Shown: positions 40,425 through 63,002, counted from the stretch's first letter. The stretch is DNA of 64,000 nt from Alphaproteobacteria bacterium UBA7314 (GCA_002471575.1 DKQG01000050.1:9813-73812); one strand, 5' to 3'. Notes: a model not told the origin generated them from the letters alone. Made by a program: numbers and translations.

Positions 40425-41495
40425 TCAGTTCAGATTGTAGAAGCTGATCATGTTGTCATGAACCAGCTTGCACTTGATCTCGTTCGAGAACTCGTTGTTT
40501 TCCAGGAACTCGGGCAACTCTGTGGTGAGATCCTCCTCGGTCGGCTCGTGAGGGTAGTCCGACGCGTAGAGGATGCGGTCCGGGCCTATGGCGTCGATGG
40601 TGTATTTTAGGTTCCGCTCGCCGAGCTCCACGGCGACCCAGAAATTGTCCCCTTCGCGCAGATAGTCTGACGGGCGCTTTTTCAGCTTGGCCCGGCTGGC
40701 CGCCCCGAACACGGATTCGTATTCGTAATCCATGCGGTCCATCATGAATGGTACCCAGGTCGCGCCGCCTTCTAGGAAGGCAATCTTCAGCTTGGGGAAA
40801 GCATCCCACATGCCTGAGAACACGATGTCAGTCAGCTGCATCATCAGCGGGAACGGGTGTTCCAGCGTGTGCACCTTCACGAATTCGCGGAAATGGTTGA
40901 AACCCATGCCGCGGCTCGGCCCGCCGTGGATGGCTAGCGGCATGTTGTTCTTTTCCGCCGCCTCGAAGATCGGCCAGAAGAACTCGTCGCCGCAGGTTTT
41001 GCCCAGATAGGTCTGCGACGGCAGCATCATGGCGGGGAAGCGCACGCGCTCGTTGGCGCAGCGCTCGATCTCCTTCGCCGCCTCTTCCGGCACCTGCACC
41101 GGCACGATACCGGCGCCGTAGAGCCGTTCGTCCTTCGACGTGTAGCGGTCTTCCAGCCAGTTGTTGTAGGCCTTGATGGTCTCGACCACCCACTTGGGAT
41201 CCGAGATCAGCCCGGCCGCAAGACCCGCCGTCGGATAAAGCACCGTGCCGTCGGCACCGATTATGTCGAGCATCTCGGCCCACACATCGGCGTCGGTATG
41301 GGTATAGCGTCGGGGTTAGCAGTCGTTGGATGCCATGATGAAGCCGCGCGCCCACCCATCGAGGCTGGGCCAGACCCCAAAGGTCTTGAAGCGCTGCAGA
41401 TTGGCAAAATCGCCCTCAAAATATTCAGCGATCTCTTCATCGTTCTCGAGCACGTGCCCGTCGCCGTCAAAGACGTCGAATCCGTTGATAGCCAT
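40425..41495 (-). pseudogene. Amidohydrolase-2 family (ACMSD-like metal-dependent hydrolase/decarboxylase) gene interrupted by an in-frame TAA
   Basis: The C-terminal 286 codons (40425-41285) carry amidohydrolase-2 motifs (AIHGGP.., ..ILYASDYPHEP). An N-terminal 58-codon segment (41322-41495, MAINGFDVFDGDGHVLE..) is in the same frame. The two are separated by a single TAA at 41316-41318 on the minus strand. Confidence 0.6.
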
Positions 41496-41701
41496 CAGTC
41501 CCTCCCGGTTTTCATCGCGTTCCCTGCCCTAAATTCATGACCTCCACAGGCACCGAGTCAATGACGGTCCGGGAGGGTAAGAGGGCCGACGCCGAGACAA
41601 CGAATGTTCAGGCTTCTCCCCAAACAAGGGAGAAGGCGGATTTGGAAATCGCGTCCGGAAGGATATATGCTCTGGCAACAGTTTGACCGACCGAGGCGGC
41701 C

Positions 41702-42100
41702 ATGACCGAAAACACGCTCGATAATTTCGAAAACGGCGACGAGACCAAGATCAACTACTACCACGCCCATATCTATTACGGCGACGACGACGCTGTGCGC
41801 GAAACTGCGGCGCGACTGCGTGAAAAGGCGTGGAACAAATGGCCCGGCAAGGTGCGCATGGGCCGGTTCCGCGACAAGGCGGTCGGACCGCATCCGCTGG
41901 CCATGTACCAGATCGAGTTCGACCACGAGATCTTCGACGAGATCGTTCCCTGGCTGATGTACAACCGCGACGGCTTGACCATCCTGCTCCATCCCGACGC
42001 CGAAGACGCCTGGCGCGATCACGCCTGGTACCCGTTCTGGATGGGCGAAAAGCTGGACCTACGACTGAACTGGCTGGCGGCGGGCAACCGACAGGCTTAG
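41702..42100 (+). CDS. DOPA 4,5-dioxygenase-family protein (small aromatic ring-cleavage dioxygenase-like)
   Basis: 132 aa with the motif YHAHIYYGDDD..., which is characteristic of the approximately 110-130-aa DOPA-dioxygenase family. Confidence 0.6.
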   Translation: MTENTLDNFENGDETKINYYHAHIYYGDDDAVRETAARLREKAWNKWPGKVRMGRFRDKAVGPHPLAMYQIEFDHEIFDEIVPWLMYNRDGLTILLHPDAEDAWRDHAWYPFWMGEKLDLRLNWLAAGNRQA

Positions 42101-44288: not shown

Positions 44289-45535
44289 GCGGCTTTTCGC
44301 GCGATCAGCGTGTCGTTGTCACGGGCGACGATGCGGGCGGGCACGATAACGCCATCCGCCGCTGCGCCGTCGATGCGGACATTGGCGAACTGAGGCGTCC
44401 GACCGGCCGCGTCCTTTTCGACCAGCACGTCGGCGACGGAGCCGATCTGCGCATCGAGGAACCGCTGTACCTGCGCCGCTCCCGCCGCGCGCAGTTCGGC
44501 GGCGCGGGCCTTACGTATGTCACCGGGCAGTTGCGGCATCTTCGCCGCGGGCGTGCCGGAGCGCTCGGAATAGGGAAATACGTGCAGCCACGTCAGCCCG
44601 CACCGCTCGACCAGCGAAACGGAATTTGCGAACGCGTCGTCGGTTTCGGTCGGGAAGCCGGCGATGATATCGGCGCCGAACGCGGCGTCGGGGCGCAGAG
44701 CCCGGACACGGTCGACGAAACGTTCGATATCGGCACGACAGTGGCGGCGTTTCATGCGTTTCAGGATCAGGTCGTCGCCCGACTGCACACTGATATGGAA
44801 ATGCGGCATCAGACGCGGTTCGTCCGCGATCAGGCCGAACAGCGTGTCGTCAATTTCCGCCGGATCGACCGAGCTGAGCCGCAGCCGCGGCAGATCGGAC
44901 ACCAACGCCAGCAGGCGTTTGATCATGTCGCCGAGCCGCGGCCTACCGGGCAGGTCCAGTCCGTAGTCAGTGATGTCGACGCCGGTCAGCACAATTTCGC
45001 GGTAGCCCTGATCGACCAGGGTACGGACCTGGTCGACGATCACGCCGATGGGGACCGAACGGTTATTTCCGCGGCCGAACGGGATGATGCAGAACGTGCA
45101 ACGGTGATCGCAGCCCTGCTGGATCTCGACGAAGACCCGGGCGCGGCCCTCGAAACCGGAAATCAGGTGCGGTGCGGTTTCGCGAACGGTCATGATGTCG
45201 TTGACCGACACGCGGGGGGTATCGCCGAGCCCGGACCATGTGTCGGCACGCAGCTTTTCCTCGTTACCGATCACGCGATCGACTTCTTCCATGGCGGCGT
45301 ACTTGTCCGGGTCGATCTGCGCAGCACAGCCGGTGACGATGATCCGGGCGTCGGGGTTTTCGCGCCGGGCGCGGCGGATGGACTGGCGCACCTGGCGTTC
45401 GGCCTCTGCCGTGACGGCGCAGGAATTTACGATAACCGCGTCTTCCAGTCCGGTGGCGGCGGCATGGCCGCGCATGACCTCGGATTCAAAGGCATTGAGC
45501 CGGCAGCCGAATGTCAGGATGTCTGTCGCGCTCAT
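44285..45535 (-). CDS. mtaB: Radical-SAM methylthiotransferase, MiaB-like (MtaB)
   Basis: 416 aa with an N-terminal MTTase domain ([11 protein letters not shown]), the radical-SAM CxxxCxxC box ([11 protein letters not shown]) and a C-terminal TRAM-like domain. It sits between dapF and ftsY, the usual alphaproteobacterial context. Confidence 0.85.
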
Positions 45536-46392
45536 CCGAGCAGGCTTTCGTCGATCGTTCCGGAGAAGCTGGTGGCCCCCGGACCGGTCATGAACACACG
45601 GCCCGGTTCGCCGGGTCGGTCCTCGCGCCAGTCGATCAGCAGTTCGCCTCCGTCGACAACGACCACCATGCGCCGGCCGGCCAGGTTGCGGCGGTTGGCA
45701 TTGACCACGGCAGCGCAGGCGCCGGTCCCGCAGGCCGAGGTCAGCCCGACGCCGCGCTCCCAGACGCGAAGTCGCATGCGATCCGGTGCCAGGATCTGGG
45801 CGACGCCGATATTGGCCCGTTCCGGAAAGACCGGATGGACTTCCAGTTCCGGGCCGACCAGAGCGATAGGTATGGAATCGACATCGTCGACGAAAAAAGT
45901 TGCATGCGGGTTGCCCATGCTGACCGCCGCCGGGTCGTCCAACGGTCCGCAGGCAAGATCGAGATGAAGCGTGTCGGCTTCCGCCACCAGCGGAATCTGG
46001 TCCCAGTCGCCGCGCGGAATACCCATGTCGACCGACACCAGCCCGTAACCCGCGCGTTTCACCGTCAGCAGGTCGGCGCCGGTGCGGACCCTTACCGCGT
46101 CGCCGTCGACTTCGTCCAGAAGTACGGCGCCGATGCAGCGCGTGGCATTGCCGCAGGCATCGACCTCGCCCCCGTCGGCGTTGCGGATGCGCATGAAGGC
46201 GTGGGAGTCGCCGTCGGGCGCGTCCTCGATGATGATGAACTGGTCGCAGCCGACGCCGGTACGGCGGTCGGCGATCGCCGCCGCCTGGGCAGCCGAAATC
46301 GCCGCGCCGGCGGCGGGTTTCCCGCCACGCGCGTCAATCACCACGAAATCGTTGCCGAGCCCGTGCATTTTCGTAAACGGCAGTTCGGTCAT
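45532..46392 (-). CDS. dapF: Diaminopimelate epimerase
   Basis: 286 aa beginning [23 protein letters not shown], with the two catalytic Cys regions ([16 protein letters not shown]; ACGTGACAA). Confidence 0.93.
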
Positions 46393-46550
46393 AGCGCGCG
46401 TAATATGGCGGGAACGGGGGCGAAGTCCAGCGGAATAGAATACGCCGGTTTAGTTGGGGGCGTTTCGATCGCCTACCCCTCGACTCGGGCCCGCGATTCC
46501 GGGAATATCGATCCGGGAACAGGGACGACGATCGAACGAAGGTAACCGCA

Positions 46551-48869
46551 ATGCAATTTGGTGTTGGACAGCCCGTGCCGCGCACGGAGGATCCGAAATT
46601 TCTGATGGGCCAGGGACAGTATGTGGACGATATCCGTCTACCCTTTACGGCAATCGGCTATGTACTGCGGTCGCCCTATCCGCATGCGAAGGTCAACGGC
46701 GTCAACGCAGACGCGGCGAAGGAAGCGCCGGGCGTCGTATTGATCCTGACCGGCGCCGATGCGGAGGCGCAGGGTCTCGGCACGCTGCACTGCCACGTCC
46801 CTCCAATGGCGTTCGGCGGACCGCCTTCACCGACCCCGGCGCATCCGATCCTGGCGCGCGACCGGGTCCGTTGCGTCGGCGATCCCGTGGCATTTGTGGT
46901 GGCCGAAACGCTGGCCGAGGCCAAGGACGCCGCCGAGATGATCGAGGTCAATTACGAGGCCCTGCCAGCCGTCGGATCGACCCGTGCCGCGGTGAAAGAC
47001 GGTGCGCCACAGGTATGGGACGACAATCCCGGCAATCTGTGGTTCGAAATGGACCGCGGTGACGCCGATGCCACCGACGCCGCCTTCGCTAGAGCGGCAC
47101 ATGTGGTGAAAGCGGACCTGCACCACAACCGGATTTCCGCCAATGCCATGGAGCCGCGCGCGGCGCTGGCCGAATACAGCGCGGGCCGGCGCGAATGGAC
47201 GTGCTACATGTCGAGCCAAGGCACCCATCAGCACCGCCCGACTTTCGCCGAGATATTTCATCAACCAGCGACCGCGTTCCGGGTGATCGCGCCCGATGTG
47301 GGCGGAGGGTTCGGTATGAAAAACGGCGTCTTCCCGGAAGATGCACTGGTCGCCTGGGCCGCACGGGAGCTAGGACGGCCCGTCAAATGGACGGGGGACC
47401 GGTCTGAATCGCTGATCAGCGACACTCACGCCCGCGACGCCGAAACCGACAGCGAAATGGCGCTGGACGAGAACGGCAAGATTCTCGCCATCCGCGTGAA
47501 GGCGGATTACGGCGTCGGCGCCTATCTGTCCGCGTCAGCACCAGTACCGGCCTGCATCGGGTCGATGGTGTACCAGAACGTCTACGTATACGGCGCCATG
47601 CACATTCATATCCGCGTGGTTTTCAGCAATACCACCTGGACCGGCCCCTATCGCGGCGCCGGACGTCCGGAAGCGGTCTACGTGGTCGAACGGCTGCTCG
47701 ATATCGCCGCCGACGAGATGGGCATAGATCCGGTGGAAATCCGTCAGCGGAATTATATCACCGAGGAGAAGATGCCCTTCACCACGCTAATCCCGACGGT
47801 ATACGATTCCGGCGATTTTCCGGGGATCACGGATCATGCGGCGGACATCGCCGACATTCCCGGGTTCGAGGCGCGTAAGGCGGAAAGCGCTGCTCGCGGC
47901 AAGCTGCGAGGGCTGGGCACGTGTTCGTTCATTGATTTCGCATCGCCGTTCAACGACCGCATGGAAATCCGCTTCGACGATACCGGCTCGGTGACCGTGG
48001 TCGCGGGAACGCACAGCCACGGCCAGGGCCACCAGACGGTATATGCCCAGATGATCCACAGCTGGCTCGGCGTACCGTTCGAGAAGATTCGCCTTTTACA
48101 GGGTGATTCTGACAAGGTCACTTACGGTCGCGGCACCTACGGGTCGCGCTCAATGACCATAGGCGGTTCAGCGCTCCGGCTCGCCGCCGACAAGATCATC
48201 GACAAGGCGAGGAAGATCGCCGCCCACGTTCTCGAGGCAGCGGAGGAAGATATCGAGTTCGCCGACGGCAACCTGACCGTCGCCGGGACAGACAAGTCGA
48301 TGCATATCTGCGACATAGCGCCGATGTCCTATATGCCGATGGGTTGGCCGACGGAGCTGGGAATTGGGCTGGAAGCAGAAGCCACCTGGAACCCTGAAAC
48401 CGGCCCCAACTGGCCGAACGGCACCCACTTCACCGAGGTCGAGGTGGATCCCGATACCGGGTTCGTGGATCTGGTCCGCCACATCGCGGTCAACGATTCC
48501 GGCGAGGTGATCAACCCGCTGCTGCTGGCTGGCCAGGTCCATGGCGGCGTCGCCCAGGGGGTCGGACAGGCACTGATGGAAGACGTCACCTACGACTCCG
48601 ACGGCCAGATCCTGGCCGGGTCATTCCTAGACTATTGTATGCCCCGCGCCGACGACCTGCCGATGATCGAAACGTCGGACTTCGTGGCCGCCTGCCAGAC
48701 CAATCCGCTGGGCGTGAAAGGCGGCGGCGAATCCGGGACGGTGGGATCTATCGCGTCGACGGTAAACGCCATCGTCGATGCGCTTTCCGATTACGGCGTG
48801 ACCGATATCGACATGCCGGCGACGCCGCTGAAGGTGTGGCAGGCCATACAGCAAGGGACGACTGCCTGA
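46551..48869 (+). CDS. Molybdopterin-binding large subunit of a xanthine dehydrogenase / CO dehydrogenase-family enzyme (form-II CoxL-like), orphan
   Basis: 772 aa. The active-site loop GPYRGAGRPE is the AYRGAGR type that marks form-II CoxL homologues, not true CO dehydrogenases. Mo-hydroxylase a/b hammerhead and MPT-binding domains are present throughout. No CoxS or CoxM partner gene is adjacent. Confidence 0.85.
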   Translation: MQFGVGQPVPRTEDPKFLMGQGQYVDDIRLPFTAIGYVLRSPYPHAKVNGVNADAAKEAPGVVLILTGADAEAQGLGTLHCHVPPMAFGGPPSPTPAHPILARDRVRCVGDPVAFVVAETLAEAKDAAEMIEVNYEALPAVGSTRAAVKDGAPQVWDDNPGNLWFEMDRGDADATDAAFARAAHVVKADLHHNRISANAMEPRAALAEYSAGRREWTCYMSSQGTHQHRPTFAEIFHQPATAFRVIAPDVGGGFGMKNGVFPEDALVAWAARELGRPVKWTGDRSESLISDTHARDAETDSEMALDENGKILAIRVKADYGVGAYLSASAPVPACIGSMVYQNVYVYGAMHIHIRVVFSNTTWTGPYRGAGRPEAVYVVERLLDIAADEMGIDPVEIRQRNYITEEKMPFTTLIPTVYDSGDFPGITDHAADIADIPGFEARKAESAARGKLRGLGTCSFIDFASPFNDRMEIRFDDTGSVTVVAGTHSHGQGHQTVYAQMIHSWLGVPFEKIRLLQGDSDKVTYGRGTYGSRSMTIGGSALRLAADKIIDKARKIAAHVLEAAEEDIEFADGNLTVAGTDKSMHICDIAPMSYMPMGWPTELGIGLEAEATWNPETGPNWPNGTHFTEVEVDPDTGFVDLVRHIAVNDSGEVINPLLLAGQVHGGVAQGVGQALMEDVTYDSDGQILAGSFLDYCMPRADDLPMIETSDFVAACQTNPLGVKGGGESGTVGSIASTVNAIVDALSDYGVTDIDMPATPLKVWQAIQQGTTA

Positions 48870-49417
48870 TGGACGACCGGAAAAAACAACTGCGCGACAT
48901 CATCGCGGCAAAATCATTCTCGAAAGGCGGCGACTTCAAGTTGGCATCGGGCCAGTCCAGCGGCTTCTACTTCGACATGAAACCGACCGTGATGGACCCG
49001 GAAGGCGCACGGCTGGCGGCTGAACTGATCCTGGAGGCCGTCGCCGGCGAAGACTTGGACTGCGTCGGCGGTATGGCGGTTGGCGCCGTACCCATCGTTG
49101 CCGCCGTCGCCATGGCATCGTCCGGCACCGACCGCCCCCTGCCCGGCTTTCTGGTCAGAAAAGAAATCAAGGAACGCGGCACCGAGAAACAGGTCGAAGG
49201 CAACATGCTAGAAGGCGGCAAAGTGCTGATCGTCGAAGACGTCACCACGACCGGCGGCTCGTCGATGCAGGCGATCGACGCCGTTCAGCGCGAAGGCAAC
49301 GGCACCGTGCCCATCGTGGTCACCATCGTCGACCGGCTTCAGGGCGCGGAGGACAATTTCCGGGAAAAGGGAATTCGGATGATTTCCCTGCTGACTAAGG
49401 ACGATTTCACGGACTAG
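48869..49417 (+). CDS. pyrE: Orotate phosphoribosyltransferase
   Basis: About 183 aa with the PRPP-binding motif VLIVEDVTTTGGS. Its ATG overlaps the TGA of the upstream gene (ATGA). Confidence 0.9.
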   Translation: MDDRKKQLRDIIAAKSFSKGGDFKLASGQSSGFYFDMKPTVMDPEGARLAAELILEAVAGEDLDCVGGMAVGAVPIVAAVAMASSGTDRPLPGFLVRKEIKERGTEKQVEGNMLEGGKVLIVEDVTTTGGSSMQAIDAVQREGNGTVPIVVTIVDRLQGAEDNFREKGIRMISLLTKDDFTD

Positions 49418-49430
49418 CGAAGCCTTCTCC

Positions 49431-49700
49431 ATGATCTACACCGTCAGCATTCGCCAGCACGACAGCCCCGTACCGGTGGAGATTGGCCAAACGATCCTGG
49501 AAGCCACCCTGACTCTGGGGGTGCCTTACCCGCATGGATGCCGGTCGGGCAATTGCGGGTCCTGCAAGTCGCGGCTGTTTGCGGGCGACGTCGAGATGTC
49601 ACCTTATTCGGAATACGCCCTGAGCGACGACGAAAAAGCCGACGGACGGATTTCACCCTCAAATGGTGGGACGGGGAAGATCGCATCGCCGCCGACCTGA
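49431..49700 (+). pseudogene. Remnant of a reductase-type plant-like [2Fe-2S] ferredoxin domain (truncated)
   Basis: The 89-aa ORF has C-x4-C-x2-C (HGCRSGNCGSCKS) and ..YALSDDEKADG, as in the N-terminal ferredoxin domains of oxygenase reductases. The fourth Cys and the entire FAD/NAD domain are absent, and the downstream frames to 50121 translate to nonsense. Confidence 0.45.
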
Positions 49701-50121
49701 TGTCTGTTGCAGAAGATGCCGTTGGCCGCGAAACGGTCGGGACTCGTATCGCGAACATCGAGTTTGCAGGCTCCGATCATCTGCACGGCGTCGCGTCTAC
49801 AGCGCTCGCTCGAGGCGGTCTAGCCGATGCGGGGCTCGTCAAAAGCGCTGCTGGATCCGCATCGATCGCGGTTCACCACGCCGCGCTGGGATTGGCCGCC
49901 GGGCAATCAGGTGCCCATCCGTTCGCCGCCAAGTTCCGGCTGTTCCAGGCAGGCCGCTGGCCGCTGGGCATATACGGAAACGTTTTCTACGTCTTTTAAG
50001 CCAGGGTGCTCCGCCAGCAGAATTCGACACGGATCCTATACCGCGTTTCGTCTTGTCTAATCCGTGCTGGCCGAATAGGCTCCGGCCTTTCTTGCGCCGA
50101 GAATAGGGGAAGGCAGGCGTC

Positions 50122-50538
50122 TTGCCGTTTACCAATCGATATCAGACCCGCGCCGAATGGGCGGATTGCGACCCGCTGGGGCAAACGTTCTATCCGAACT
50201 ATTTCAGGTGGTTCGATATCGGCACGCACACGCTGCTGGATGCAGCGGGACACCCCTATGACGGGTTGATCGAGGAATACGGCCTGGCTGGCCTGCCGCT
50301 GGTTGATGCGCAGGCGTCGTTTCGCGACCGTTGCCGGTGGACGGACAACCTGGAAATCGAAAGTTTCATTTCCCGTTTCGGCAGCAAAAGCTTTACCGTG
50401 ACGCACAACATCTGGAACGGCGGCGACGTAGCTGTCGAGGGCAAGGAAGTTCGTATCTGGGGCCTGTTCGATCCGGAAGACGACACCAAACTTATGGCCG
50501 GCGAGATCCCGGAAGATTTCAAACAGATATTCGCGTAG
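50122..50538 (+). CDS. Hotdog-fold acyl-CoA thioesterase (4-hydroxybenzoyl-CoA thioesterase / YbgC-like)
   Basis: 138 aa with the pattern W.DCD..G..YPNYFRWFD.. typical of 4HBT-class thioesterases. The likely start is TTG. Confidence 0.7.
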   Translation: MPFTNRYQTRAEWADCDPLGQTFYPNYFRWFDIGTHTLLDAAGHPYDGLIEEYGLAGLPLVDAQASFRDRCRWTDNLEIESFISRFGSKSFTVTHNIWNGGDVAVEGKEVRIWGLFDPEDDTKLMAGEIPEDFKQIFA

Positions 50539-50549
50539 GCGGGACCTGC

Positions 50550-51020
50550 ATGGCGTCAAAAAAATCAAGCGCGCGTTCCAGCGACCGGCGGGGTGACATA
50601 GTTATGGGCATGCTGCCCGACCTGATCGGTTTCAACCTGCGATGCGCCCAGTTGGTGCTGTTCCAGCATTTCGGCGCTACAGTCGGACAGGACGGCATAT
50701 CCGTGCCCCAGTTCGGGACGCTGCTGTTGATCGAAGCCAACCCCGACATCAGCCAAAGCGCGATTGCCGAAGCGCTGCGTTTAGACCGGTCGACACTGGT
50801 ACAGATCATCGACCGGTTGGAAAATCGTGGGCTGGTGGTTCGGCACGTATCGCCGACTGACCGCCGGTCCCACGCGTTGCAGCTGACAGACGCGGGGTCG
50901 GAAACGCTGGCGGAACTGAAACAACGCACCGTCGAACACGAAGACGACGTCGCCTCGGCACTAAACGACGACGAACGCGCGCAGTTCATTTCACTGCTTA
51001 AGAGGCTGTACGGCGGCTAG
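50550..51020 (+). CDS. MarR-family transcriptional regulator
   Basis: 156 aa with a winged-helix region ISQSAIAEALRLDRSTLVQIIDRLENRGLVVRHVSPTDRRSHALQLT. The ORF-track start at 50331 overlaps the upstream gene out of frame, so I place the start at the ATG at 50550. Confidence 0.8.
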   Translation: MASKKSSARSSDRRGDIVMGMLPDLIGFNLRCAQLVLFQHFGATVGQDGISVPQFGTLLLIEANPDISQSAIAEALRLDRSTLVQIIDRLENRGLVVRHVSPTDRRSHALQLTDAGSETLAELKQRTVEHEDDVASALNDDERAQFISLLKRLYGG

Positions 51021-51100
51021 AGGCACGACTGACTTCATCCTGAAGAGGTCCGCAGAGCCGTCTCGAAGGAAGAGACGGCCCTGGCCGATTTGACAGCCTA

Positions 51101-52153
51101 TTAACCCGTTTCGCCCTCGCGGAACAGACCGAGCTTCTGCTGCACTGGCTGATCGGTAAAGCTGAATAGGAACGAGTCTTCGTCAGCCTGGTGTTCGTGC
51201 TTGAACCAGGCGGGCACGACGAAGGTGTCCCTTGCCTTCCAGGTCATCTTCTGCCCGTTGATGATCGTGCTGCCGGATCCTTCGACACAGTGATACACCC
51301 AGGCTGCGGTCGTCTGGTACACATCGCCTGAGAAGCCATTGGGCAGCTTTTGCATATAGGTACCGACGGTCGGCATGACCGGCCCACCCGTCGTCGGGTT
51401 GATGTATTCGAGCTTGTAGCCGTGACGGGCATCGATATCGCCCGATTTTGACAAGGTATCCAGCGTGTCGCGCGTCTGGACGTAAGGATAATGGAACACT
51501 GGTGAATTTGCCGGTCCCGACGTTTCGCCGAACGGCCGCATATTGCCACCGTATCGCGCCATATTATCGCCCGACGGCCGTCCCTGCGGGAATTCGGATT
51601 CGGGATAGGGTTCGGCAAAGACCGGGCCGAGATGGCGGACAAGCGGGATGTCCAGCCCGTCGAGCCAGACAACCGGCACATCGCCATCATGGCCATGGTC
51701 GTGCCACACCCAGGATGGCGTCAGGATCAGATCGCCGACCTCCATATAGGCTTTTTCGCCGTTCAACGCGGTATAGGCGCCGGTTCCTTCGACGATAAAC
51801 CTCAGCGCACAAGGCGAATGTCGGTGCGCGGGTGCGACTTCGCCGGGCATGATCAGCTGCAGGCCGGCGTACAAGGCCTCGGTGATGCAAGATTTCTCTT
51901 CCAGTCCAGGGTTTTCGAGAACCATGACGCGACGCTCGGCTTCTTCCGCCGAGATGATATCGGCTGACTCCATGATATAGGGACGGCACAAATCATAATC
52001 CCATTTGTGCGGAACCGCGTCCGTCACCGGCGCTTCAGCCAGCAGCGTGTGCAATACTTCCCACAGCGGCGTCATCTTTTGTTCCGCCATGCGACCGTAA
52101 AAATCGGCGCGGGCGTTGGTCAATTCCGGTTTTTCGTGCAGGGCCCTGCTCAT
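51101..52153 (-). CDS. Gentisate 1,2-dioxygenase-like bicupin ring-cleavage dioxygenase
   Basis: 350 aa with two cupin domains. The first carries the gentisate-dioxygenase-type metal motif HRHSPCALRF, and the second has HDHGHDGD. The N-terminus MSRALHEKPELTNARADFYGRM is typical of the family. It is transcribed divergently from wecB and convergently with marR. Confidence 0.8.
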   Translation of the reverse strand: MSRALHEKPELTNARADFYGRMAEQKMTPLWEVLHTLLAEAPVTDAVPHKWDYDLCRPYIMESADIISAEEAERRVMVLENPGLEEKSCITEALYAGLQLIMPGEVAPAHRHSPCALRFIVEGTGAYTALNGEKAYMEVGDLILTPSWVWHDHGHDGDVPVVWLDGLDIPLVRHLGPVFAEPYPESEFPQGRPSGDNMARYGGNMRPFGETSGPANSPVFHYPYVQTRDTLDTLSKSGDIDARHGYKLEYINPTTGGPVMPTVGTYMQKLPNGFSGDVYQTTAAWVYHCVEGSGSTIINGQKMTWKARDTFVVPAWFKHEHQADEDSFLFSFTDQPVQQKLGLFREGETG

Positions 52154-55944: not shown

Positions 55945-57000
55945 CTATCCGGCGAAGACGGACATCACCTTTTCTCCGAACAGTCTGGTAGAGCGTTCGG
56001 CGTCTTCGTAGCTCATATCGCTGAAATTGACCTGCAGCGACGCATCGTCGAAACCGCCGATGTCAGACTCGTACGCCCGAATCCTCTCTATCAGGACCTC
56101 GGGCGTCCCGACCCATGCCGCACCCTTTTCCACCTGGGACTCAAATGTTTCTGCATCGAGAGCGGCAATCATCTTGCCATAGTTCTTGTAGGCATCGGAC
56201 TCCGCACCGTCGACCCAGCCACTGGCGGCATCGACTAGGGATTTGAGATACCGGTTGAGAGGATCGCGGGCGATCCGGGCCGCTTCTTCCGCATCTTCGT
56301 GACAGAACATGTGAAACGCCAGCATGATCCGGCCGTCACCGTCATGACCAGCGGATTTCCATGCTTCGCGATAGATACTGATCAGTTCGGCCATTGCCGA
56401 GCCGCCGATCGGGATCGCCATGATGTAATTGCCGATCCGTCCCGCTTTTTCGAAAGACTCGGGCGTCGTGAAGGCCGCAGTCCAGAAATTCGGTCGCGGC
56501 TTCTGAGATGGCCGGGGAAGCGAGGTTACGTTGCTGAACCTGTGGAACTGGCCGTCATGCGACACATTTTCGCCGGTCAACAGAAGTTCGATCTGTTCCA
56601 TGCCCTCGTCGAAACGCGCGACGCTTTCGTCAAGGGAGATCCCGAAGCGATCGTACTCGTGGGGCAGGAACGCCCGGGCGAAGCCGATTTCCGCACGACC
56701 GCCGGAAATCGCGTCCAGCATGCCGATCTCGCCGGCCAGTTTAAGCGGGTTGTTGAATACCGGCAGGACGGCCCCGGTCACGATCCGGGCGTTCTTGGCC
56801 CGCTGCGATGCTGCAGACAGGAAAACGATGGGGTTGGGGCTGTATCCGCCATAGGGATGGAAATAGTGCTCAACGGTTCTGATATGCGAGTAACCATACA
56901 CATCCGCCAGCTCGGTCAGACGCAGACATTCGTCGAAAAACTGTTGCCCCGATTTCTGATCCGGCCCCACAGCAGGGAAAAACTGCATTCCGAATTCCAC
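55945..57000 (-). CDS. Luciferase-like (LLM-class) flavin-dependent oxidoreductase
   Basis: 351 aa with a TIM-barrel LLM signature (MEFGMQFFPAVGP...YGYSHIRTVEHYF..). Confidence 0.85.
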   Translation of the reverse strand: MEFGMQFFPAVGPDQKSGQQFFDECLRLTELADVYGYSHIRTVEHYFHPYGGYSPNPIVFLSAASQRAKNARIVTGAVLPVFNNPLKLAGEIGMLDAISGGRAEIGFARAFLPHEYDRFGISLDESVARFDEGMEQIELLLTGENVSHDGQFHRFSNVTSLPRPSQKPRPNFWTAAFTTPESFEKAGRIGNYIMAIPIGGSAMAELISIYREAWKSAGHDGDGRIMLAFHMFCHEDAEEAARIARDPLNRYLKSLVDAASGWVDGAESDAYKNYGKMIAALDAETFESQVEKGAAWVGTPEVLIERIRAYESDIGGFDDASLQVNFSDMSYEDAERSTRLFGEKVMSVFAG

Positions 57001-57286
57001 GTCGACCTCCCGAAATATATTTATATCGCCCGATTTTTACACCGTACCCGCCGAACTCTAGGGGAACCAATATTCCGTGTACAGATTAATGATCCTCTCA
57101 CAAGATTGGGACCAAATTCCAACCGACGGAACGTGATTTGGAAAAATTGCTCGAAGACCAGCTGTAAGATTTTTCGCTGCAGAATGTGCCCGGGCGAGGA
57201 TCATGGCGGCCCTGCCCCGGAGGATTATGACCGGGTAATGAGAATACCAACCAAGCTGTCAGGGAGCGGCGGCTGATTAGACACGC

Positions 57287-58000
57287 TTGACCACCACCCT
57301 AAAACCCCACCATCAACCCATGGATAACGTGCTGTCATTGAATGTGGACATGTCCACCCTCGCGGTCGTCCGGTCCGCTGACATGGGCTGGCAGGCAAGC
57401 CTGTCTCCCACCGTGTGGCACAAGAGGCTTTACTTTGACGGGCCGGCAGAAGCGGCGATCGTCACATCCGTTGTTCGCTACGAAGCGGGCGGCGAATTTC
57501 CCACCCACCACCATCCGGGTGGCGAGGAAATCTTCGTTCTCGAAGGCGTTTTGTCAGATGAACACGGCGATTATCCGTCAGGTACGTACCTGTTAAACCC
57601 GGACGGCACCAGCCATGCGCCGTTTTCGAAGGACGGCTGCACGCTGTTCGTCAAGCTGCGCCAGTACGGTGGCGAGGGCCGCACCCAGGTAGAGATGAAT
57701 TCGGGCGCGCTGGACTGGCAGCCGTGGAACGACAGTGGCGTGTGGCAGAAACCGTTGTACCGGCAGGGCGGCTTCAGGGAATGGACGCAGCTGCTGAAGC
57801 TGGACCCGGGGGCGCAATCGCCACCTCATCAGCATCCGAACGGCGAAGAGGTGTTCGTGATCGACGGTGCAATCGAGGACGAATTCGGTGCTTACCCCGC
57901 CGGCACCTGGATCCGGTACCCGCCCGGATCGTCGCACACGGTAAAATCGCCAAAAGGTGCTATTCTGTATGTCCGGCTCGGAGGCATTGCGGAAAAATGA
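57287..58000 (+). CDS. Bicupin protein resembling the ChrR anti-sigma-factor cupin domain (tandem HHHPGGEE / HQHPNGEE cupin cores)
   Basis: About 230 aa with two repeated cupin units, each carrying the pattern H.HP.GEE..V..G. The start is probably the Met at 57320. Confidence 0.55.
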   Translation: MTTTLKPHHQPMDNVLSLNVDMSTLAVVRSADMGWQASLSPTVWHKRLYFDGPAEAAIVTSVVRYEAGGEFPTHHHPGGEEIFVLEGVLSDEHGDYPSGTYLLNPDGTSHAPFSKDGCTLFVKLRQYGGEGRTQVEMNSGALDWQPWNDSGVWQKPLYRQGGFREWTQLLKLDPGAQSPPHQHPNGEEVFVIDGAIEDEFGAYPAGTWIRYPPGSSHTVKSPKGAILYVRLGGIAEK

Positions 58001-58362
58001 CCGACACAATTATTCGTCACGACGACGTAGCGCAGGAGGAGTTTCCCGGCGGCGCAACCTACAGAACGCTGGTCGGTGACGATGACGGAACGACGCCCGT
58101 TAGATGCGGTATTCAGACATCGTCTCCTGGTTACGCGACGCCGAACCATGCGCACCCCTACGTGGAAATCGTCACCGTGCTGGAAGGTGCCGGAGAGGAC
58201 TGGGTCGACGGCCAGGACGGCACCACCGACATCGGACCAGGCATCACCATGGTATTTCCGCCGAACACCGCCCACGGCTTCCGCGTGACCGGCGACGCAC
58301 CGCTGGTGACCTACGGCGTGCATTCCTCCTCGGACCGGATCGTCGATATCAGAGAAAAATAG
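57997..58362 (+). CDS. Cupin-domain protein (121 aa)
   Basis: Cupin metal motifs are present (NHAHPYVEIVTVLEG ... PPNTAHGF). The ATG overlaps the upstream stop (ATGA). Confidence 0.6.
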   Translation: MTDTIIRHDDVAQEEFPGGATYRTLVGDDDGTTPVRCGIQTSSPGYATPNHAHPYVEIVTVLEGAGEDWVDGQDGTTDIGPGITMVFPPNTAHGFRVTGDAPLVTYGVHSSSDRIVDIREK

Positions 58363-58434
58363 TCCCCGCCCCGGCTGTCGCTAACCGTCAACGCCGCTTG
58401 TAGACAGCTCGCGTTAAATTTCCTCAAAAGTCCC

Positions 58435-59013
58435 CTAATCGGCGCCCACGTCCCCGGCACCCTTGCCTTCGCCAACACGGTGCAGCGGGCGACCAGAATC
58501 CGTCAGCGCGATTATTACGACAATTTCATCAGCTCGCGGCGCGTCAGCGAGCGAGACTTCCATCGCGTCGAAATGCGAAAACGTCCATACGTCTTCCTTG
58601 TGGTGCAGTGGGCAGTCGATCGCGGTGCCAGGACCTCCGACTTTTTTAGTCGAGGGAATAATCGATGGCGCCGGACCGACGATATCGCGCAAGGGCTTGC
58701 CCATGGTGGGATGCATGCAGGCGGCGCCGTGTTCCTTCTCGCCGTTCTCGCCTATGATGGCGGCCTTGCCAAAACTATGTACTTCTGCCGCGCTTATGCC
58801 GAGGGCGTTCATTGCGCAGCGGCCTAGAAGATCGCCCAGCTCGGCGCCGGCGGCCTCCAGTTCCGGCAGGTCATGCGAAAACCGGCCGGCATAGGGATTT
58901 TTGATCACGGCAACGGCGGCGCATTGCCGGCTGGGCGGATCGACCACTTCGCCGATTTCTATACGCGTTTCCTCGACGAGGGTGACGATTTTCCTAATCT
59001 CTGTGCCCGGCAT
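58435..59013 (-). CDS. DUF1185 / 'amino-acid synthesis' family protein
   Basis: 192 aa. The N-terminus MPGTEIRKIVTLVEETRIEIG and the overall length match this family of unknown function. Confidence 0.5.
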   Translation of the reverse strand: MPGTEIRKIVTLVEETRIEIGEVVDPPSRQCAAVAVIKNPYAGRFSHDLPELEAAGAELGDLLGRCAMNALGISAAEVHSFGKAAIIGENGEKEHGAACMHPTMGKPLRDIVGPAPSIIPSTKKVGGPGTAIDCPLHHKEDVWTFSHFDAMEVSLADAPRADEIVVIIALTDSGRPLHRVGEGKGAGDVGAD

Positions 59014-59090
59014 GTCTTGATCCCCTGCATGGCGCGGTTTCTCCTATTATGTCATAAACGGCTGAAGAATAATCGAGGAGTACAGGGCGC

Positions 59091-60497
59091 ATGGATCAGT
59101 CGATCCGGGGATATCTCGCCAATCTGGAACAGCAGGGCGAACTGGTGCGTTTTCGAAAGGAAGTGGACCCGCATGAAAACCTGACCGCTATCGGTTGGAA
59201 GACATTCGACCGGCTGGGAAAGGCGTCGCTGTTCGACAATCTGACCGGCTTTCCCGACTGGCAGGTCTGCAACCAGATCCTGATCGACCGCCGCAAATGG
59301 GGCATCGGCCTGGGCGTCGCAGAAGAAGACGTGATCGAGACGTTCAATACCCGCGTCAAATCGCCGATCGATCCGGAAATGGTCGACGCCGCCGGGGCGC
59401 CGGTAAAGGAAGTGATCCTGAAAGGCGATGAGGTCGACCTGACCAAAGTGCCAGCGGCGTGGACGTCGGAACTGGATCCCGGTCCTTTCATCGCGTCGGG
59501 CATGGCGATCATCAAGGACCCGGACACCGGTATCCGAAACATGTCAATCCATCGCCAGCAGATCATGGGCAAGAACCGTACCGGATATCTTATCTGCCCG
59601 CGCCAAGCATTGCGCATCTATCAGAAATACCAAGAACGGAACGAGCCCATGCCGGTGGCCATGGTCGTCGGCGCGCATCCGGCGATATATTTCTCGTCGT
59701 CCTACACCGCGCCTTACGGCACCGACGAACTGACCGTCGCCGGCGCGCTGATGGGCGAACCCGTCCGCATGGTAAAATGCGAGACCATCGATATCGAGGT
59801 CCCGGCCGAAGCTGAGATGATTCTCGAAGGCGAAATTCCACCCGATGCCCATACGCCGGAGGGTCCATTCGGCGAGGGGTCCGGCGGATACGCAATGGAG
59901 GGGTTCACCCAGTACTTGGATGTTAAATGCATCACCCGGCGCGAGAAACCGATCTTTTATGCGATGCAATGCGGTGCGCCGATGACGGACACCCAGGCAC
60001 TAGTCGCCACCGCGATCGACATGCTGCTGTGGGAACACCTGAAAAACGTCGAAGGCGGGCTCGACCTGCTCGATCTCCGCTGTCTCGGACTTGCCGGCAT
60101 GATGGCGGTCGTGGTCAAACTGCGTCCCCGGGTCGAGGGGCAGGCCAAGACTGCGCTGATGGCGGCGCTATCTGGCCCGCAGATGCACCCGAAACTCGCC
60201 ATCGCAGTTGACGAGGATATCGATGCGTCCGACATGCGCCAGGTATTCTGGTCGCTGACGACGCGGGTACATGCCGAGCGCGACGTCATCAAAATTCCTA
60301 ACGCCCGCACATGGTCGCTCGACAACGTGTCCGACATCGTGCCGGGACAAAGCGCCATGCACCGCATCGGCACAAAGACGATCATCGACGCCACCAAGCC
60401 GGCAGTGACCGATCCAGAGGGCCGCGAGCGCTTTACCATGGCGATGCCGAAAAACTACGACAGCGTCGATCTCGCCGATTTCTTACCTGATTCATGA
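59091..60497 (+). CDS. UbiD-family (prFMN-dependent) reversible aromatic-acid decarboxylase
   Basis: 468 aa with UbiD-family landmarks (..MSIHRQQIMGKNRTGY.., GEGSGGYAMEG.., the C-terminal ..SLTTRVHAERDV..). No ubiX or flavin prenyltransferase gene lies in the window. Confidence 0.85.
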   Translation: MDQSIRGYLANLEQQGELVRFRKEVDPHENLTAIGWKTFDRLGKASLFDNLTGFPDWQVCNQILIDRRKWGIGLGVAEEDVIETFNTRVKSPIDPEMVDAAGAPVKEVILKGDEVDLTKVPAAWTSELDPGPFIASGMAIIKDPDTGIRNMSIHRQQIMGKNRTGYLICPRQALRIYQKYQERNEPMPVAMVVGAHPAIYFSSSYTAPYGTDELTVAGALMGEPVRMVKCETIDIEVPAEAEMILEGEIPPDAHTPEGPFGEGSGGYAMEGFTQYLDVKCITRREKPIFYAMQCGAPMTDTQALVATAIDMLLWEHLKNVEGGLDLLDLRCLGLAGMMAVVVKLRPRVEGQAKTALMAALSGPQMHPKLAIAVDEDIDASDMRQVFWSLTTRVHAERDVIKIPNARTWSLDNVSDIVPGQSAMHRIGTKTIIDATKPAVTDPEGRERFTMAMPKNYDSVDLADFLPDS

Positions 60498-60616
60498 GCT
60501 GCTTAAGCAGATTTCACACCTGCCCTCTCCGCCTTCCGGCCGAACACGGGACGATCTTTATGGTTGTCTGGGAGCGGGAGCGGGGACCCGGCTACTCAAG
60601 ATAAAGGAGCCCGACC

Positions 60617-62948: not shown

Positions 62949-62983
62949 ATAAAAAAAGGCGGACCCGAAGGCCCGCCTTTTTT
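62948..62983. terminator. Bidirectional rho-independent terminator
   Basis: AAAAAAA-GGCGGACCCGAAGGCCCGCC-TTTTTT. A GC hairpin is flanked by an A-run and a T-run, sitting between the convergent transporter gene and the Rieske oxygenase gene. Confidence 0.7.
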
Positions 62984-63002
62984 AAATATTGGTGCGCGGA
63001 CG

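What the first reader, a model, noticed from the sequence alone, without database searches (positions are those of the whole stretch)
46551..49417. Orphan form-II CoxL-like Mo-hydroxylase large subunit, translationally coupled to pyrE
The 772-aa molybdopterin subunit carries the AYRGAGR-type active-site loop (GPYRGAGRPE) of form-II CoxL homologues, whose substrates are largely unknown. These enzymes normally need a 2Fe-2S small subunit and an FAD medium subunit encoded next door, and neither is present. Instead the stop overlaps the start of pyrE (orotate phosphoribosyltransferase) in an ATGA junction. That pairing ties an uncharacterised hydroxylase to pyrimidine metabolism and suggests a role in N-heterocycle, for example pyrimidine or purine, oxidation. 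Just downstream is a decayed reductase-type ferredoxin domain (49431-49700).
Basis: partly seen in the sequence, partly recalled or inferred. Interest (0 to 1): 0.5.

Follow-up and report, generated by a model that had tools for sequence, protein, structure and literature searches.

The report
Lone molybdenum hydroxylase subunit beside pyrE
This is an intact gene for the catalytic subunit of an uncharacterised molybdenum hydroxylase; in one group of marine alphaproteobacteria it sits without its usual partner genes and shares an operon with an ordinary pyrimidine-synthesis gene, which looks like inherited gene order and not a metabolic link.

Summary
46551-48869 (+) encodes a 772-aa xanthine-oxidase-family Mo-binding subunit with the loop GPYRGAGRPE. 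A bona fide 182-aa pyrE (48869-49417) follows, then an 89-aa 2Fe-2S remnant. Two corrections: the junction is TGATG (1-nt overlap), not ATGA, and the loop is the "atypical" PYRGAGR, not AYRGAGR.

- **Orphan status:** there is no coxS or coxM within about 71 kb. The same holds within ±6-10 kb of every relative at 59% identity or more. These form a 100%-bootstrap alphaproteobacterial clade, sister to canonical form II coxSLM clusters (43-50% identity).
- **Function:** the gene is under strong purifying selection (dN/dS 0.04-0.07) and keeps the catalytic Gln and Glu. It lacks the CO-dehydrogenase cysteine.
- **pyrE linkage:** it is conserved across the marine lineage (16 loci, 10 with the 1-nt overlap) and in one second lineage. 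Five other close CoxL relatives lack it. So do all 50 assessable metagenomic loci whose PyrE is at most 57% identical.
- **Ferredoxin remnant:** it is the stump left by a 2.7-kb deletion of a PaaA/C-type oxygenase cluster.

Verdict: an ordinary but uncharacterised hydroxylase large subunit, with partners most likely encoded elsewhere. The pyrimidine link is unsupported. Low-to-moderate interest.

The parts
45532..46392 (-). dapF (diaminopimelate epimerase), transcribed divergently from the hydroxylase gene. It is the conserved left neighbour, part of ftsY-mtaB-dapF.
   Evidence: Pfam DAP_epimerase 5e-48. The dapF<->coxL adjacency is present in all syntenic relatives and also in L076 and L091.
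46480..46508 (+). Conserved promoter-like block TCGACT-N17-GAATAT in the 158-bp dapF-coxL intergenic region, 42 nt upstream of the start codon. It is inferred to be the promoter of the coxL-like/pyrE unit.
   Evidence: CTCGAC is invariant, and ATTCCG..AATATC is nearly so, in an 11-locus alignment with 51% mean column identity. The strict sigma-70 scan did not call it. No Rfam RNA family is found here.
46551..48869 (+). A 772-aa molybdopterin-binding (large) subunit of a xanthine-oxidase-family hydroxylase. It belongs to the CoxL branch, in the orphan alphaproteobacterial 'clade O'.
   Evidence: Pfam architecture. No NCBIfam equivalog reaches its cut-off. The best PDB match is 8uem_A CoxL, 6.5e-160. 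Tree. dN/dS 0.04-0.07.
47643..47672 (+). Active-site loop GPYRGAGRPE, an atypical form II motif. The position that holds the form I Cys (AYRCSFR) is Gly here.
   Evidence: Literature.
48720..48737 (+). GGGESG, which contains the conserved catalytic Glu of Mo hydroxylases. It aligns with the GVGES/GIGES of the form I CoxL sequences.
48869..49417 (+). pyrE, a 182-aa orotate phosphoribosyltransferase. Its ATG shares one base with the TGA stop of the upstream gene (TGATG).
   Evidence: TIGR00336 scores 137.4 against a cut-off of 106.8. The best PDB matches are 2p1z and M. tuberculosis OPRT 5hkf, about 1e-26, with the RKExKxxG loop and the VEDVTTTGGS PRPP motif aligned. Junction.
49431..49700 (+). 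Remnant of a reductase gene. The first 71 codons or so encode a plant-type 2Fe-2S domain with 3 of its 4 Cys. They are then fused out of frame to downstream sequence. The deletion junction lies at about 49639-49643.
   Evidence: Pfam Fer2 1e-11. blastn against L006 maps window 49431-49643 to L006 13013-13225 and window 49639-50200 to L006 15910-16428.
49700..49999 (+). A 99-aa ORF: the C-terminal part of a 133-aa protein of unknown function that is intact in relatives. It marks the right edge of the 2.68-kb deletion.
   Evidence: tblastn and translations. No Pfam hit.
50122..52153 (.). Context genes conserved to the right: a 4HBT-type thioesterase (50122-50538 +), MarR (50550-51020 +) and gentisate 1,2-dioxygenase (51101-52153 -).
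   Evidence: Pfam and NCBIfam. Synteny in L006-L018, L084 and L086.

Best explanation
**The hydroxylase gene.** The gene at 46551-48869 encodes the molybdenum-cofactor-binding catalytic subunit of a xanthine-oxidase-family hydroxylase from the CoxL branch. It belongs to an alphaproteobacterial clade ('clade O', at least 59% identity to the window protein). In this clade the large-subunit gene always stands alone.

**How it probably works.** The enzyme is functional and is not a CO dehydrogenase. It most likely hydroxylates an organic substrate with water at the Mo centre. An aromatic N-heterocycle or an aldehyde is the most probable class, but the identity is unknown. Electrons would pass to a 2x[2Fe-2S] small subunit and an FAD medium subunit. 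These partners are inferred to be encoded at another locus, possibly shared with other large-subunit paralogues.

**The pyrE link.** pyrE is an ordinary orotate phosphoribosyltransferase gene. In this lineage it became the second gene of the same transcription unit, with a conserved promoter-like block upstream and a 1-nt stop/start overlap. The pairing reflects inherited gene order and co-expression, not a shared pathway.

**The ferredoxin ORF.** It is unrelated debris from a 2.7-kb deletion of a neighbouring PaaA/C-type oxygenase cluster.

**Shown:** identity, intactness, selection, local orphan state, the phylogenetic distribution of the linkage, and the deletion. **Inferred:** partners in trans, substrate class, co-transcription.
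For: **Identity and intactness**
- Three Mo-hydroxylase domains are present.
- PDB matches: CoxL 8uem 6.5e-160, quinoline oxidoreductase 1t3q 1e-121, and 6-hydroxypseudooxynicotine dehydrogenase 7dqx 7e-119.
- The catalytic Gln (SSQG), GGGFG, YRGAGR, GSRS and catalytic Glu (GGGES) are all retained.
- dN/dS is 0.04-0.07, the same as for pyrE.
- The form I Cys is absent.

**Orphan state**
- CoxS and CoxM HMMs find nothing in the window, in its right-hand extension, or in any clade-O locus.
- Relatives at 40-50% identity carry coxS-coxL-coxM. Examples are Azospirillum B510, S. meliloti pSymB, Latescibacterota, Gemmatimonadota and Chloroflexota.

**Precedent for unlinked partners**
- Next to clade O on the tree, Agrobacterium pAt1D1609a has M-S-CoxG 4 kb from L on the other strand.
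- L044 has an orphan L 2.3 kb from an L-M-S cluster.
- L075, L076 and L091 each have two orphan L genes within 20 kb.

**The pyrE linkage as inherited synteny**
- Clade O has 100% bootstrap support. Within it the syntenic subclade has both dapF and pyrE, L079 has pyrE only, L076 and L091 have dapF only, and L074, L075 and L092 have neither.
- The L079-type PyrE is sister to the syntenic PyrE clade, with 68% bootstrap.
- Of 80 metagenomic pyrE loci, only the two closest (69% and 76% identity) have coxL upstream. None of the 50 with at least 1 kb of upstream sequence and PyrE at most 57% identical has it.
- PyrE passes TIGR00336 and keeps the OPRT motifs.
Against: - The partner subunits were never seen. 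Only about 71 kb of this genome and ±6-10 kb around each relative could be examined, so 'S/M elsewhere' is an inference.
- Orphan status across 20 or more independent contexts is unusually consistent for a family whose subunits are normally co-encoded.
- The clade carries a deletion of about 12 residues near residue 465 relative to the partner-linked large subunits aligned. It also has 40 conserved-but-different positions among 259 columns conserved in SLM-linked proteins, against 10 in a control group. This could mean an altered subunit interface.
- The coxL-pyrE pair survived in L079 even though both of its flanks were rearranged. Its 1-nt overlap is kept in 10 of 16 loci. This is compatible with selection for co-expression.
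- The trees are neighbour-joining only.
Confidence: 0.6

Rival explanations
1. The hydroxylase and PyrE form a functional module in N-heterocycle metabolism. For example, the enzyme could oxidise a pyrimidine or purine, or make or consume an orotate-like substrate that PyrE then ribosylates.
For: - The stop/start overlap is conserved in 12 of 16 loci: 1 nt in ten, 4 nt in L079 and 8 nt in L077.
- The pair persists in L079-L081 in a completely different neighbourhood (UbiD, MarR, Meth_synt_2, Rieske).
- Both genes are under equally strong purifying selection.
- Characterised relatives in the CoxL branch do hydroxylate N-heterocycles: quinoline oxidoreductase and 6-hydroxypseudooxynicotine dehydrogenase.
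Against: - Five clade-O members lack an adjacent pyrE.
- 50 of 50 assessable loci with PyrE at most 57% identical lack coxL.
- L082 has pyrE without coxL.
- L014-L017 and L086 have 52-103-nt spacers with GC hairpins.
- PyrE carries standard OPRT motifs and passes the equivalog-domain model, so nothing suggests an altered substrate.
- No other pyrimidine or purine gene is in the neighbourhood.
- No literature links coxL and pyrE.
Confidence: 0.12
2. Clade-O large subunits have dispensed with dedicated CoxS and CoxM. They work alone or with a non-canonical electron acceptor, which would make them a new architecture for the xanthine oxidase family.
For: - No S or M gene lies near any of 20 or more clade-O loci in at least six different genomic contexts.
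- There is a clade-specific deletion of about 12 residues, plus many fixed substitutions at positions conserved in SLM-linked proteins.
- Orphan paralogues occur in tandem (L091).
Against: - To my knowledge, every characterised family member needs at least the 2x[2Fe-2S] module to take electrons from the buried Mo-pterin.
- 66% of SLM-conserved columns are retained, against 71% in a partner-linked control group, so there is no global relaxation.
- Next to clade O on the tree, L088 and L044 have S and M a few kb away.
- The only nearby 2Fe-2S/FAD protein is the Fer2-FAD6-NAD1 reductase. It is absent from L007, L009 and L014-L017 and is deleted in the window, so it cannot be an obligatory partner.
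Confidence: 0.15
3. It is a form II CO dehydrogenase large subunit that oxidises CO.
For: Sources annotate relatives as 'carbon-monoxide dehydrogenase large subunit'. The best PDB hit is a CoxL. The sister group is made up of form II coxSLM clusters.
Against: - The Cys-containing loop AYXCSFR, diagnostic of the validated CO-oxidising form I enzymes, is replaced by PYRGAGR.
- TIGR02416 scores 549 against a cut-off of 991.
- No coxS, coxM or coxD/E/F/G accessory genes are present.
- CO oxidation by form II enzymes is itself unresolved (PMC13203968, PMC13240472).
Confidence: 0.05
4. The gene is a decaying relic that lost its partners and no longer functions.
For: It is locally orphan and sits next to a clear deletion scar.
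Against: - The 772-codon frame is intact in every relative.
- dN/dS is 0.04-0.07.
- All catalytic and cofactor motifs are conserved.
- Upstream there is a GAAGG ribosome-binding-like sequence and a conserved promoter-like block.
Confidence: 0.02

Closest known systems
Form II ('putative') CoxL of coxS-coxL-coxM clusters, e.g. Azospirillum sp. B510 pAB510c and Sinorhizobium meliloti pSymB
   Same: - Same three-domain architecture.
- Same YRGAGR-type active-site loop, with the catalytic Gln and Glu retained.
- 50% and 43% identity respectively.
- Sister position on the tree, 86% bootstrap for the joint group.
   Different: - Those genes are flanked by coxS and coxM. In Azospirillum they are also flanked by MoxR, VWA and XdhC maturation genes. 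The window gene has none of these.
- The loop has Pro in place of Ala (PYRGAGR).
- There is a deletion of about 12 residues near residue 465.
- The function of form II enzymes is itself unresolved.
Form I aerobic CO dehydrogenase CoxL (Afipia/Oligotropha carboxidovorans OM5 pHCG3; PDB 8uem, 1n5w, 1ffu)
   Same: Same fold and domain order. It is the best solved-structure match (8uem, 6.5e-160).
   Different: - 34.5% identity to OM5 CoxL.
- It lacks the AYRCSFR Cys.
- There is no coxMSL operon.
- TIGR02416 scores far below its cut-off.
N-heterocycle hydroxylases of the CoxL branch: quinoline 2-oxidoreductase QorL (1t3q) and 6-hydroxypseudooxynicotine dehydrogenase (7dqx)
   Same: Strong full-length matches, 1e-121 and 7e-119. 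They show that this branch includes enzymes that hydroxylate aromatic N-heterocycles.
   Different: They are clearly more distant than the CoxL forms. Both are heterotrimers with dedicated S and M subunits. No substrate-specifying residues were compared.
Split arrangement on Agrobacterium tumefaciens pAt1D1609a (L088)
   Same: It branches next to clade O on the tree (80% bootstrap). Its large-subunit gene is not adjacent to its presumed partners: FAD subunit, 2Fe-2S subunit and CoxG lie 4 kb away on the opposite strand.
   Different: - The partners are still in the same neighbourhood.
- 46% identity.
- The loop is VYRGPGR.
- There is no pyrE.
Short-type orotate phosphoribosyltransferase, e.g. 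Mycobacterium tuberculosis PyrE (PDB 5hkf) and Corynebacterium 2p1z
   Same: About 180 aa, with the same RKExKxxG catalytic loop and EDxTTTG PRPP motif. E about 1e-26. TIGR00336 is passed.
   Different: The loop His/Tyr position is Arg (KERG). Whether it is the only pyrE in the genome is unknown.

Membership tests
Xanthine oxidase / Mo-hydroxylase family, large (Mo-pterin-binding) subunit | a/b-hammerhead domain plus two molybdopterin-cofactor-binding domains | tested here: met
   PF01315 6e-25, PF02738 5e-73 and PF20256 7e-80, covering residues 20-704.
Xanthine oxidase / Mo-hydroxylase family, large (Mo-pterin-binding) subunit | Catalytic Glu near the C-terminus, a Gln that bonds the Mo=O group, and the GGGFG motif | tested here: met
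   GGGES (aa 724-728), SSQG (aa 221-224) and GGGFGMK (aa 251-257) align with the equivalent residues of OM5 CoxL and 8uem.
Xanthine oxidase / Mo-hydroxylase family, large (Mo-pterin-binding) subunit | Works with a 2x[2Fe-2S] subunit or domain, and usually also an FAD subunit | tested here: inconclusive
   No CoxS-like or CoxM-like ORF is found in 64 kb plus about 7 kb, or within ±6-10 kb in any clade-O locus.
Form II CoxL (King & Weber definition, as cited in PMC13203968 and PMC13240472) | Active-site motif AYRGAGR | tested here: not met
   The motif is PYRGAGR. The literature treats this as an 'atypical' form II motif.
Form II CoxL (King & Weber definition, as cited in PMC13203968 and PMC13240472) | Gene order coxS-coxL-coxM | tested here: not met
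   The neighbours are dapF (divergent) and pyrE. No coxS or coxM is present.
Form II CoxL (King & Weber definition, as cited in PMC13203968 and PMC13240472) | Groups phylogenetically with the reference form II sequences (Bradyrhizobium/Mesorhizobium/Sinorhizobium type) | tested here: inconclusive
   On the NJ tree the alphaproteobacterial orphan radiation, which includes the window protein, is sister to the clade holding the S. meliloti and Azospirillum coxSLM genes (joint group 86% bootstrap). The Firmicutes and Chloroflexota AYRGAGR/SLM genes branch outside. Distance method only.
Form I CoxL (aerobic CO dehydrogenase) | AYXCSFR loop, whose Cys is diagnostic of the CO-oxidising form I enzymes | tested here: not met
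   The aligned loop is PYRGAGR, with Gly at the Cys position. TIGR02416 scores 549 against a cut-off of 991.
Orotate phosphoribosyltransferase (PyrE) | Score above the curated cut-off of the pyrE model, plus the PRPP motif and the catalytic loop | tested here: met
   TIGR00336 scores 137.4 against 106.8. VEDVTTTGGS and VRKEIKERG align with M. tuberculosis OPRT. They are invariant or nearly so across 21 homologues.
Orotate phosphoribosyltransferase (PyrE) | Is the genome's housekeeping OPRT (only copy) | not testable with these tools
   The whole genome is not available. Orthologues are present in every relative, and dN/dS is about 0.05-0.065.
Fer2-FAD_binding_6-NAD_binding_1 reductase (PaaE / phthalate-dioxygenase-reductase type), for the ORF at 49431-49700 | Four-Cys plant-type 2Fe-2S domain followed by FAD and NAD domains | tested here: not met
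   Only about 71 codons remain, with 3 of the 4 Cys. The FAD and NAD domains are deleted. The intact 342-aa version is in L006, L018, L077 and L084.

The most novel reading that the evidence does not exclude
Clade O would be a lineage of molybdenum-hydroxylase catalytic subunits that no longer have dedicated small and medium subunits. Either many paralogous L subunits plug into one S/M module encoded elsewhere (a modular, subunit-sharing hydroxylase system), or they use a non-canonical electron acceptor. In the marine lineage one of them would have been recruited to a constitutively expressed housekeeping operon with pyrE. That would imply a core physiological role, possibly in pyrimidine or N-heterocycle homeostasis, and not an inducible catabolic one.
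Probability: 0.15. Interest if true: 0.6.

Novelty: new member of a known kind. Interest (0 to 1): 0.3.

Why it matters
Form II and other CoxL-like genes are abundant in marine and soil metagenomes. They are routinely miscounted as CO-oxidation genes, and their substrates are unknown.

This work shows that a well-supported alphaproteobacterial clade consistently encodes the catalytic subunit alone. The gene is under strong purifying selection. In one abundant marine lineage it sits in a housekeeping operon. This gives a defined, testable set of targets for three purposes:
- assigning a substrate;
- asking whether Mo-hydroxylase subunits are shared between paralogues;
- cleaning up 'coxL' counts in ocean surveys.

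It does not reveal a new kind of system by itself, and the suggested pyrimidine link is not supported.

Tried and rejected
1. **The neighbouring reductase as a stand-in for CoxS/CoxM.** I considered the Fer2-FAD6-NAD1 reductase. It is rejected because it is absent from L007, L009 and L014-L017 and deleted in the window. It also belongs with the adjacent PaaA/C-type oxygenase, SDR and thioesterase.
2. **Riboswitch or other RNA upstream (e.g. Moco).** Rfam gave no hit at gathering threshold over the whole window, and none at E<=1 over 46300-46650.
3. **Strict sigma-70 and terminator scan of 46300-50200.** Nothing exceeded shuffle expectation. The conserved promoter-like block came only from the comparative alignment.
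4. **Loss of the partner interface, tested on columns conserved in SLM-linked proteins.** Retention is 66% against 71% in a control group, which is inconclusive. No structure coordinates were available to define true interface residues.
5. **An ancestral SDR-coxL-pyrE operon.**
   - L092 has SDR-coxL and L082 has SDR-pyrE, with the two SDRs 55% identical.
   - The window genome has the orthologous SDR (75% identical to L092's) about 18 kb away.
   - The arrangement is suggestive of regional shuffling, but it was seen in only one other metagenomic locus, from the same organism as L082.
6. **Reaching the rest of the genome.** The single genome-contig scan went on the CoxL query. Walking with the look-up of encoding contigs added only about 7 kb. 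Matching contig lengths between hit lists was considered but judged too unlikely to be worth the last protein search.
7. **Literature.** Nothing turned up on coxL-pyrE linkage, on orphan form II coxL relevant here, or on partners 'encoded elsewhere'.
8. **Accession NC_005873.1 for pHCG3** was not in the collection. NC_015689.1 was used instead.
9. **Structure prediction** was not run. Sequence matches at E about 1e-160 already fix the fold.


Full report
**1. What is in the sequence**

The ORF at 46551-48869 (+) runs from ATG to TGA and encodes 772 aa. A GAAGG lies nine bases upstream of the ATG. Pfam finds the complete large-subunit architecture of the xanthine oxidase family: Ald_Xan_dh_C 6e-25, MoCoBD_1 5e-73 and MoCoBD_2 7e-80. 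The loop GPYRGAGRPE is at aa 365-374, window 47643-47672.

No NCBIfam equivalog reaches its curated cut-off. The best scores are:

| Model | Score | Cut-off |
|---|---|---|
| glyceraldehyde dehydrogenase alpha | 574 | 790 |
| aerobic CO dehydrogenase large subunit | 549 | 991 |
| XdhA | 367 | 780 |

The next ORF in the pyrE frame starts at ATG 48869 and ends at 49417. Its 182-aa product passes the pyrE model TIGR00336 (137.4 against 106.8).

The junction reads GCC-TGA-TGG. The stop is at 48867-48869 and the ATG at 48869-48871.

The 89-aa ORF at 49431-49700 hits Pfam Fer2 (1e-11).

The window is a chromosomal core region of an uncultured marine alphaproteobacterium.
- It carries ATP synthase, priA, the sucABCD and sdh genes, ffh, rpsP, trmD and ftsY-mtaB-dapF.
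- An identical CoxL protein is encoded on Tara Oceans and other marine assemblies.
- The closest genome records are labelled Alphaproteobacteria bacterium UBA830 or uncultured Rhodospirillaceae.

**2. Is the large subunit really orphan?**

Relatives at 40-47% identity come from Latescibacterota, Gemmatimonadota, Chloroflexota and Bacillota. In these, coxS lies immediately upstream and coxM immediately downstream, and Pfam verified examples of both.

I built HMMs from these CoxS and CoxM sequences. They find nothing in any frame of the 64-kb window, nor in about 7 kb beyond its right end. They also find nothing within ±6-10 kb of any relative at 59% identity or more. These relatives are:
- 15 syntenic loci;
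- L074 and L075 (about 75% identity);
- L076, L079, L091 and L092 (60-64% identity).

Several of these loci carry a second orphan large-subunit gene. L075 and L076 have one within 20 kb, and L091 has one in tandem.

So the orphan state is a property of a clade, not of this genome. Whether partner genes exist elsewhere in the genome could not be tested.

**3. Phylogenetic placement**

I built a neighbour-joining tree from 55 sequences and 771 columns with 100 bootstraps, rooted on Afipia carboxidovorans OM5 form I CoxL.
- 'Clade O' has 100% support. It contains the syntenic group (99%), L074 and L075, and the pair L079+L076 (100%).
- Outside it come Agrobacterium pAt1D1609a (80%) and other alphaproteobacterial orphans.
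- This whole radiation is sister to the clade that holds the canonical form II coxSLM genes of S. meliloti pSymB and Azospirillum B510. The form II clade has 85% support and the joint group 86%.

Identities to the window protein are:

| Reference | Identity |
|---|---|
| Azospirillum B510 | 50% |
| S. meliloti | 43% |
| OM5 form I | 34.5% |

The literature defines form II by the AYRGAGR motif together with coxSLM gene order. It regards the function of form II as unresolved (PMC13203968, PMC13240472). PYRGAGR has been noted as an atypical form II motif (PMC4053681, PMC6053391). The protein is therefore form II-related, but it fails two of the formal form II criteria.

**4. Is it functional, and what kind of enzyme is it?**

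The catalytic Gln, GGGFG, the YRGAGR arginines, GSRS and the catalytic Glu are all conserved across clade O. dN/dS against three relatives is 0.04-0.07, equal to that of pyrE. The Cys-containing form I loop that marks the CO-oxidising enzymes is replaced by PYRGAGR, with Gly at the Cys position. CO oxidation is therefore unlikely.

The nearest solved structures after the CoxL proteins hydroxylate N-heterocycles: quinoline 2-oxidoreductase and 6-hydroxypseudooxynicotine dehydrogenase. Genes around clade-O members are rich in aromatic and heteroaromatic catabolism. They include NicX-like proteins, FAD monooxygenases, Rieske/VanA oxygenases, Amidohydro_2 and UbiD decarboxylases and gentisate dioxygenase. 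These genomes seem generally rich in such genes, however, and the immediate neighbours are housekeeping genes. The substrate therefore remains unknown.

Relative to partner-linked large subunits, clade O has a deletion of about 12 residues near residue 465. It retains 66% of the columns that are at least 90% conserved in a partner-linked reference set. A partner-linked control group retains 71%. This gives no clear sign that a subunit interface has been lost.

**5. The pyrE linkage**

All 16 loci of the marine lineage plus L079 that extend far enough have pyrE directly downstream. The junction types are as follows:

| Junction | Loci |
|---|---|
| 1-nt overlap (TGATG or TAATG) | 10 |
| 8-nt overlap | L077 |
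| 4-nt overlap (GTGA) | L079 |
| 52-103-nt spacer with GC-rich hairpins | L014-L017, L086 |

L079-L081 carry the pair in a different neighbourhood, without dapF. There CoxL is 61% and PyrE 58% identical to the window proteins. The L079-type PyrE is sister to the syntenic PyrE clade with 68% bootstrap. This fits one ancestral pair and not independent assembly.

Against a functional coupling:
- L074 and L075 have neither dapF nor pyrE adjacent.
- L076 and L091 keep dapF but not pyrE.
- L092 has neither.
- L082 has pyrE (57% identical) with no coxL.
- A metagenome scan with a PyrE alignment returned 80 loci. Only the two closest (69% and 76% PyrE identity) had coxL upstream. None of the 50 with at least 1 kb of upstream sequence and PyrE at most 57% identical had it.
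- PyrE has the standard OPRT loop and PRPP motif, and its best structural relatives are genuine OPRTs.
- No paper links coxL and pyrE.

The simplest reading is an ancestral operon fusion. It was kept in one lineage and in one sister lineage and lost elsewhere.

**6. Upstream region**

The 158-bp dapF-coxL spacer contains blocks conserved across 11 loci. One is TCGACT-N17-GAATAT at 46480-46508, 42 nt before the ATG. This is a plausible promoter for the coxL-pyrE unit. No Rfam family matches.

**7. The ferredoxin remnant**

In L006, L010, L013, L018, L077 and L084, pyrE is followed by four genes before the thioesterase-MarR-gentisate dioxygenase block:
- a 342-aa Fer2-FAD_binding_6-NAD_binding_1 reductase;
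- a 316-aa SDR;
- a 239-aa PaaA/PaaC-family protein;
- a 133-aa protein of unknown function.

Window 49431-49643 matches the first 71 codons or so of the reductase. Window 49639-50200 matches L006 15910-16428. About 2.68 kb is therefore missing, and the fourth Cys of the cluster is lost with it. The same scar is present in all five independent assemblies of this population. Other relatives (L007, L009, L014-L017) lack the cluster entirely. The remnant has nothing to do with the hydroxylase.

**8. Verdict**

The gene is a functional but uncharacterised CoxL-branch Mo-hydroxylase large subunit. It belongs to a clade in which the gene is consistently encoded alone. Its partners are most likely encoded elsewhere, which is inferred and has precedents in L088 and L044. 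The pyrE pairing is inherited synteny and co-expression, with no evidence of a shared pathway. It is a new member of a known kind, of low-to-moderate interest. The one open and more interesting question is whether this clade shares S/M modules or lacks them altogether.

Noticed in passing
window 49431-49999 (junction at about 49639-49643); compare L006 13013-16270: A 2.68-kb deletion is fixed in this population. It removed most of a Fer2-FAD6-NAD1 reductase, an SDR, a PaaA/PaaC-family (di-iron oxygenase-like) gene and the start of a 133-aa ORF. With the flanking 4HBT thioesterase, MarR and gentisate 1,2-dioxygenase, the intact cluster looks like an aryl-CoA oxygenase route to gentisate.
   Followed up: yes
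L075 10001-12313 and 17404-19719; L076 1-1195 and 10001-12322; L091 7001-9325 and 9347-11674: Relatives carry two orphan CoxL-like genes within 20 kb, in tandem in L091. No coxS or coxM is nearby. This suggests a paralogue expansion of stand-alone large subunits.
   Followed up: partly
L014 12320-12420; L015 5517-5574; L016 12320-12371; L017 12320-12387; L086 10323-10425: Where coxL and pyrE do not overlap, the spacer holds one or more copies of a GC-rich hairpin (GCGGCAAAGCCGC in L014). In L086 there is a long CCCGCCCGC...GCGGGCGG hairpin followed by TATATT. These could be REP-like elements or a terminator plus promoter that uncouple the two genes.
   Followed up: no
L092 7295-12325; L082 5206-6546; L173 15521-18585 (about 5.5-8.5 kb beyond the right end of the window): An orthologous 251-aa SDR sits in three different arrangements. 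In L092 it is directly upstream of coxL. In L082 it is directly upstream of pyrE. In the window genome it lies about 18 kb from coxL-pyrE, next to the same divergent GMC oxidoreductase as in L092. The window-genome SDR is 75% identical to L092's and about 54% to L082's. The same few genes seem to have been shuffled within one chromosomal region.
   Followed up: partly
window 40425-42100 and 55945-63917: Aromatic-catabolism genes are interleaved with housekeeping genes. They include Amidohydro_2, a DOPA-4,5-dioxygenase-family protein, a luciferase-like monooxygenase, ChrR-type cupins, a UbiD decarboxylase, a cupin and a VanA-type Rieske oxygenase. In the window the Rieske domain of the last appears N-terminally short (304 aa against 355 aa called on L173).
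   Followed up: no
window 46393-46440: A second conserved block, GTAATATGGCGG...GAAGTCCAG, sits next to the dapF start. It is invariant or nearly so in 11 loci. It may be the divergent dapF promoter or an operator.
   Followed up: no
window aa ~463-468 of the CoxL-like protein (about 47937-47954): Deletion of about 12 residues relative to the partner-linked large subunits aligned. It is shared by clade O and by the other alphaproteobacterial orphans. Its structural location, and whether it touches a subunit interface, is unknown.
   Followed up: partly
window 13706-15465: A DUF484 protein is followed by a tyrosine recombinase (Phage_integrase plus SAM-like N-terminal domain). It lies next to priA in a housekeeping region, so it looks like the chromosomal XerC-type arrangement and not a mobile element.
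   Followed up: no
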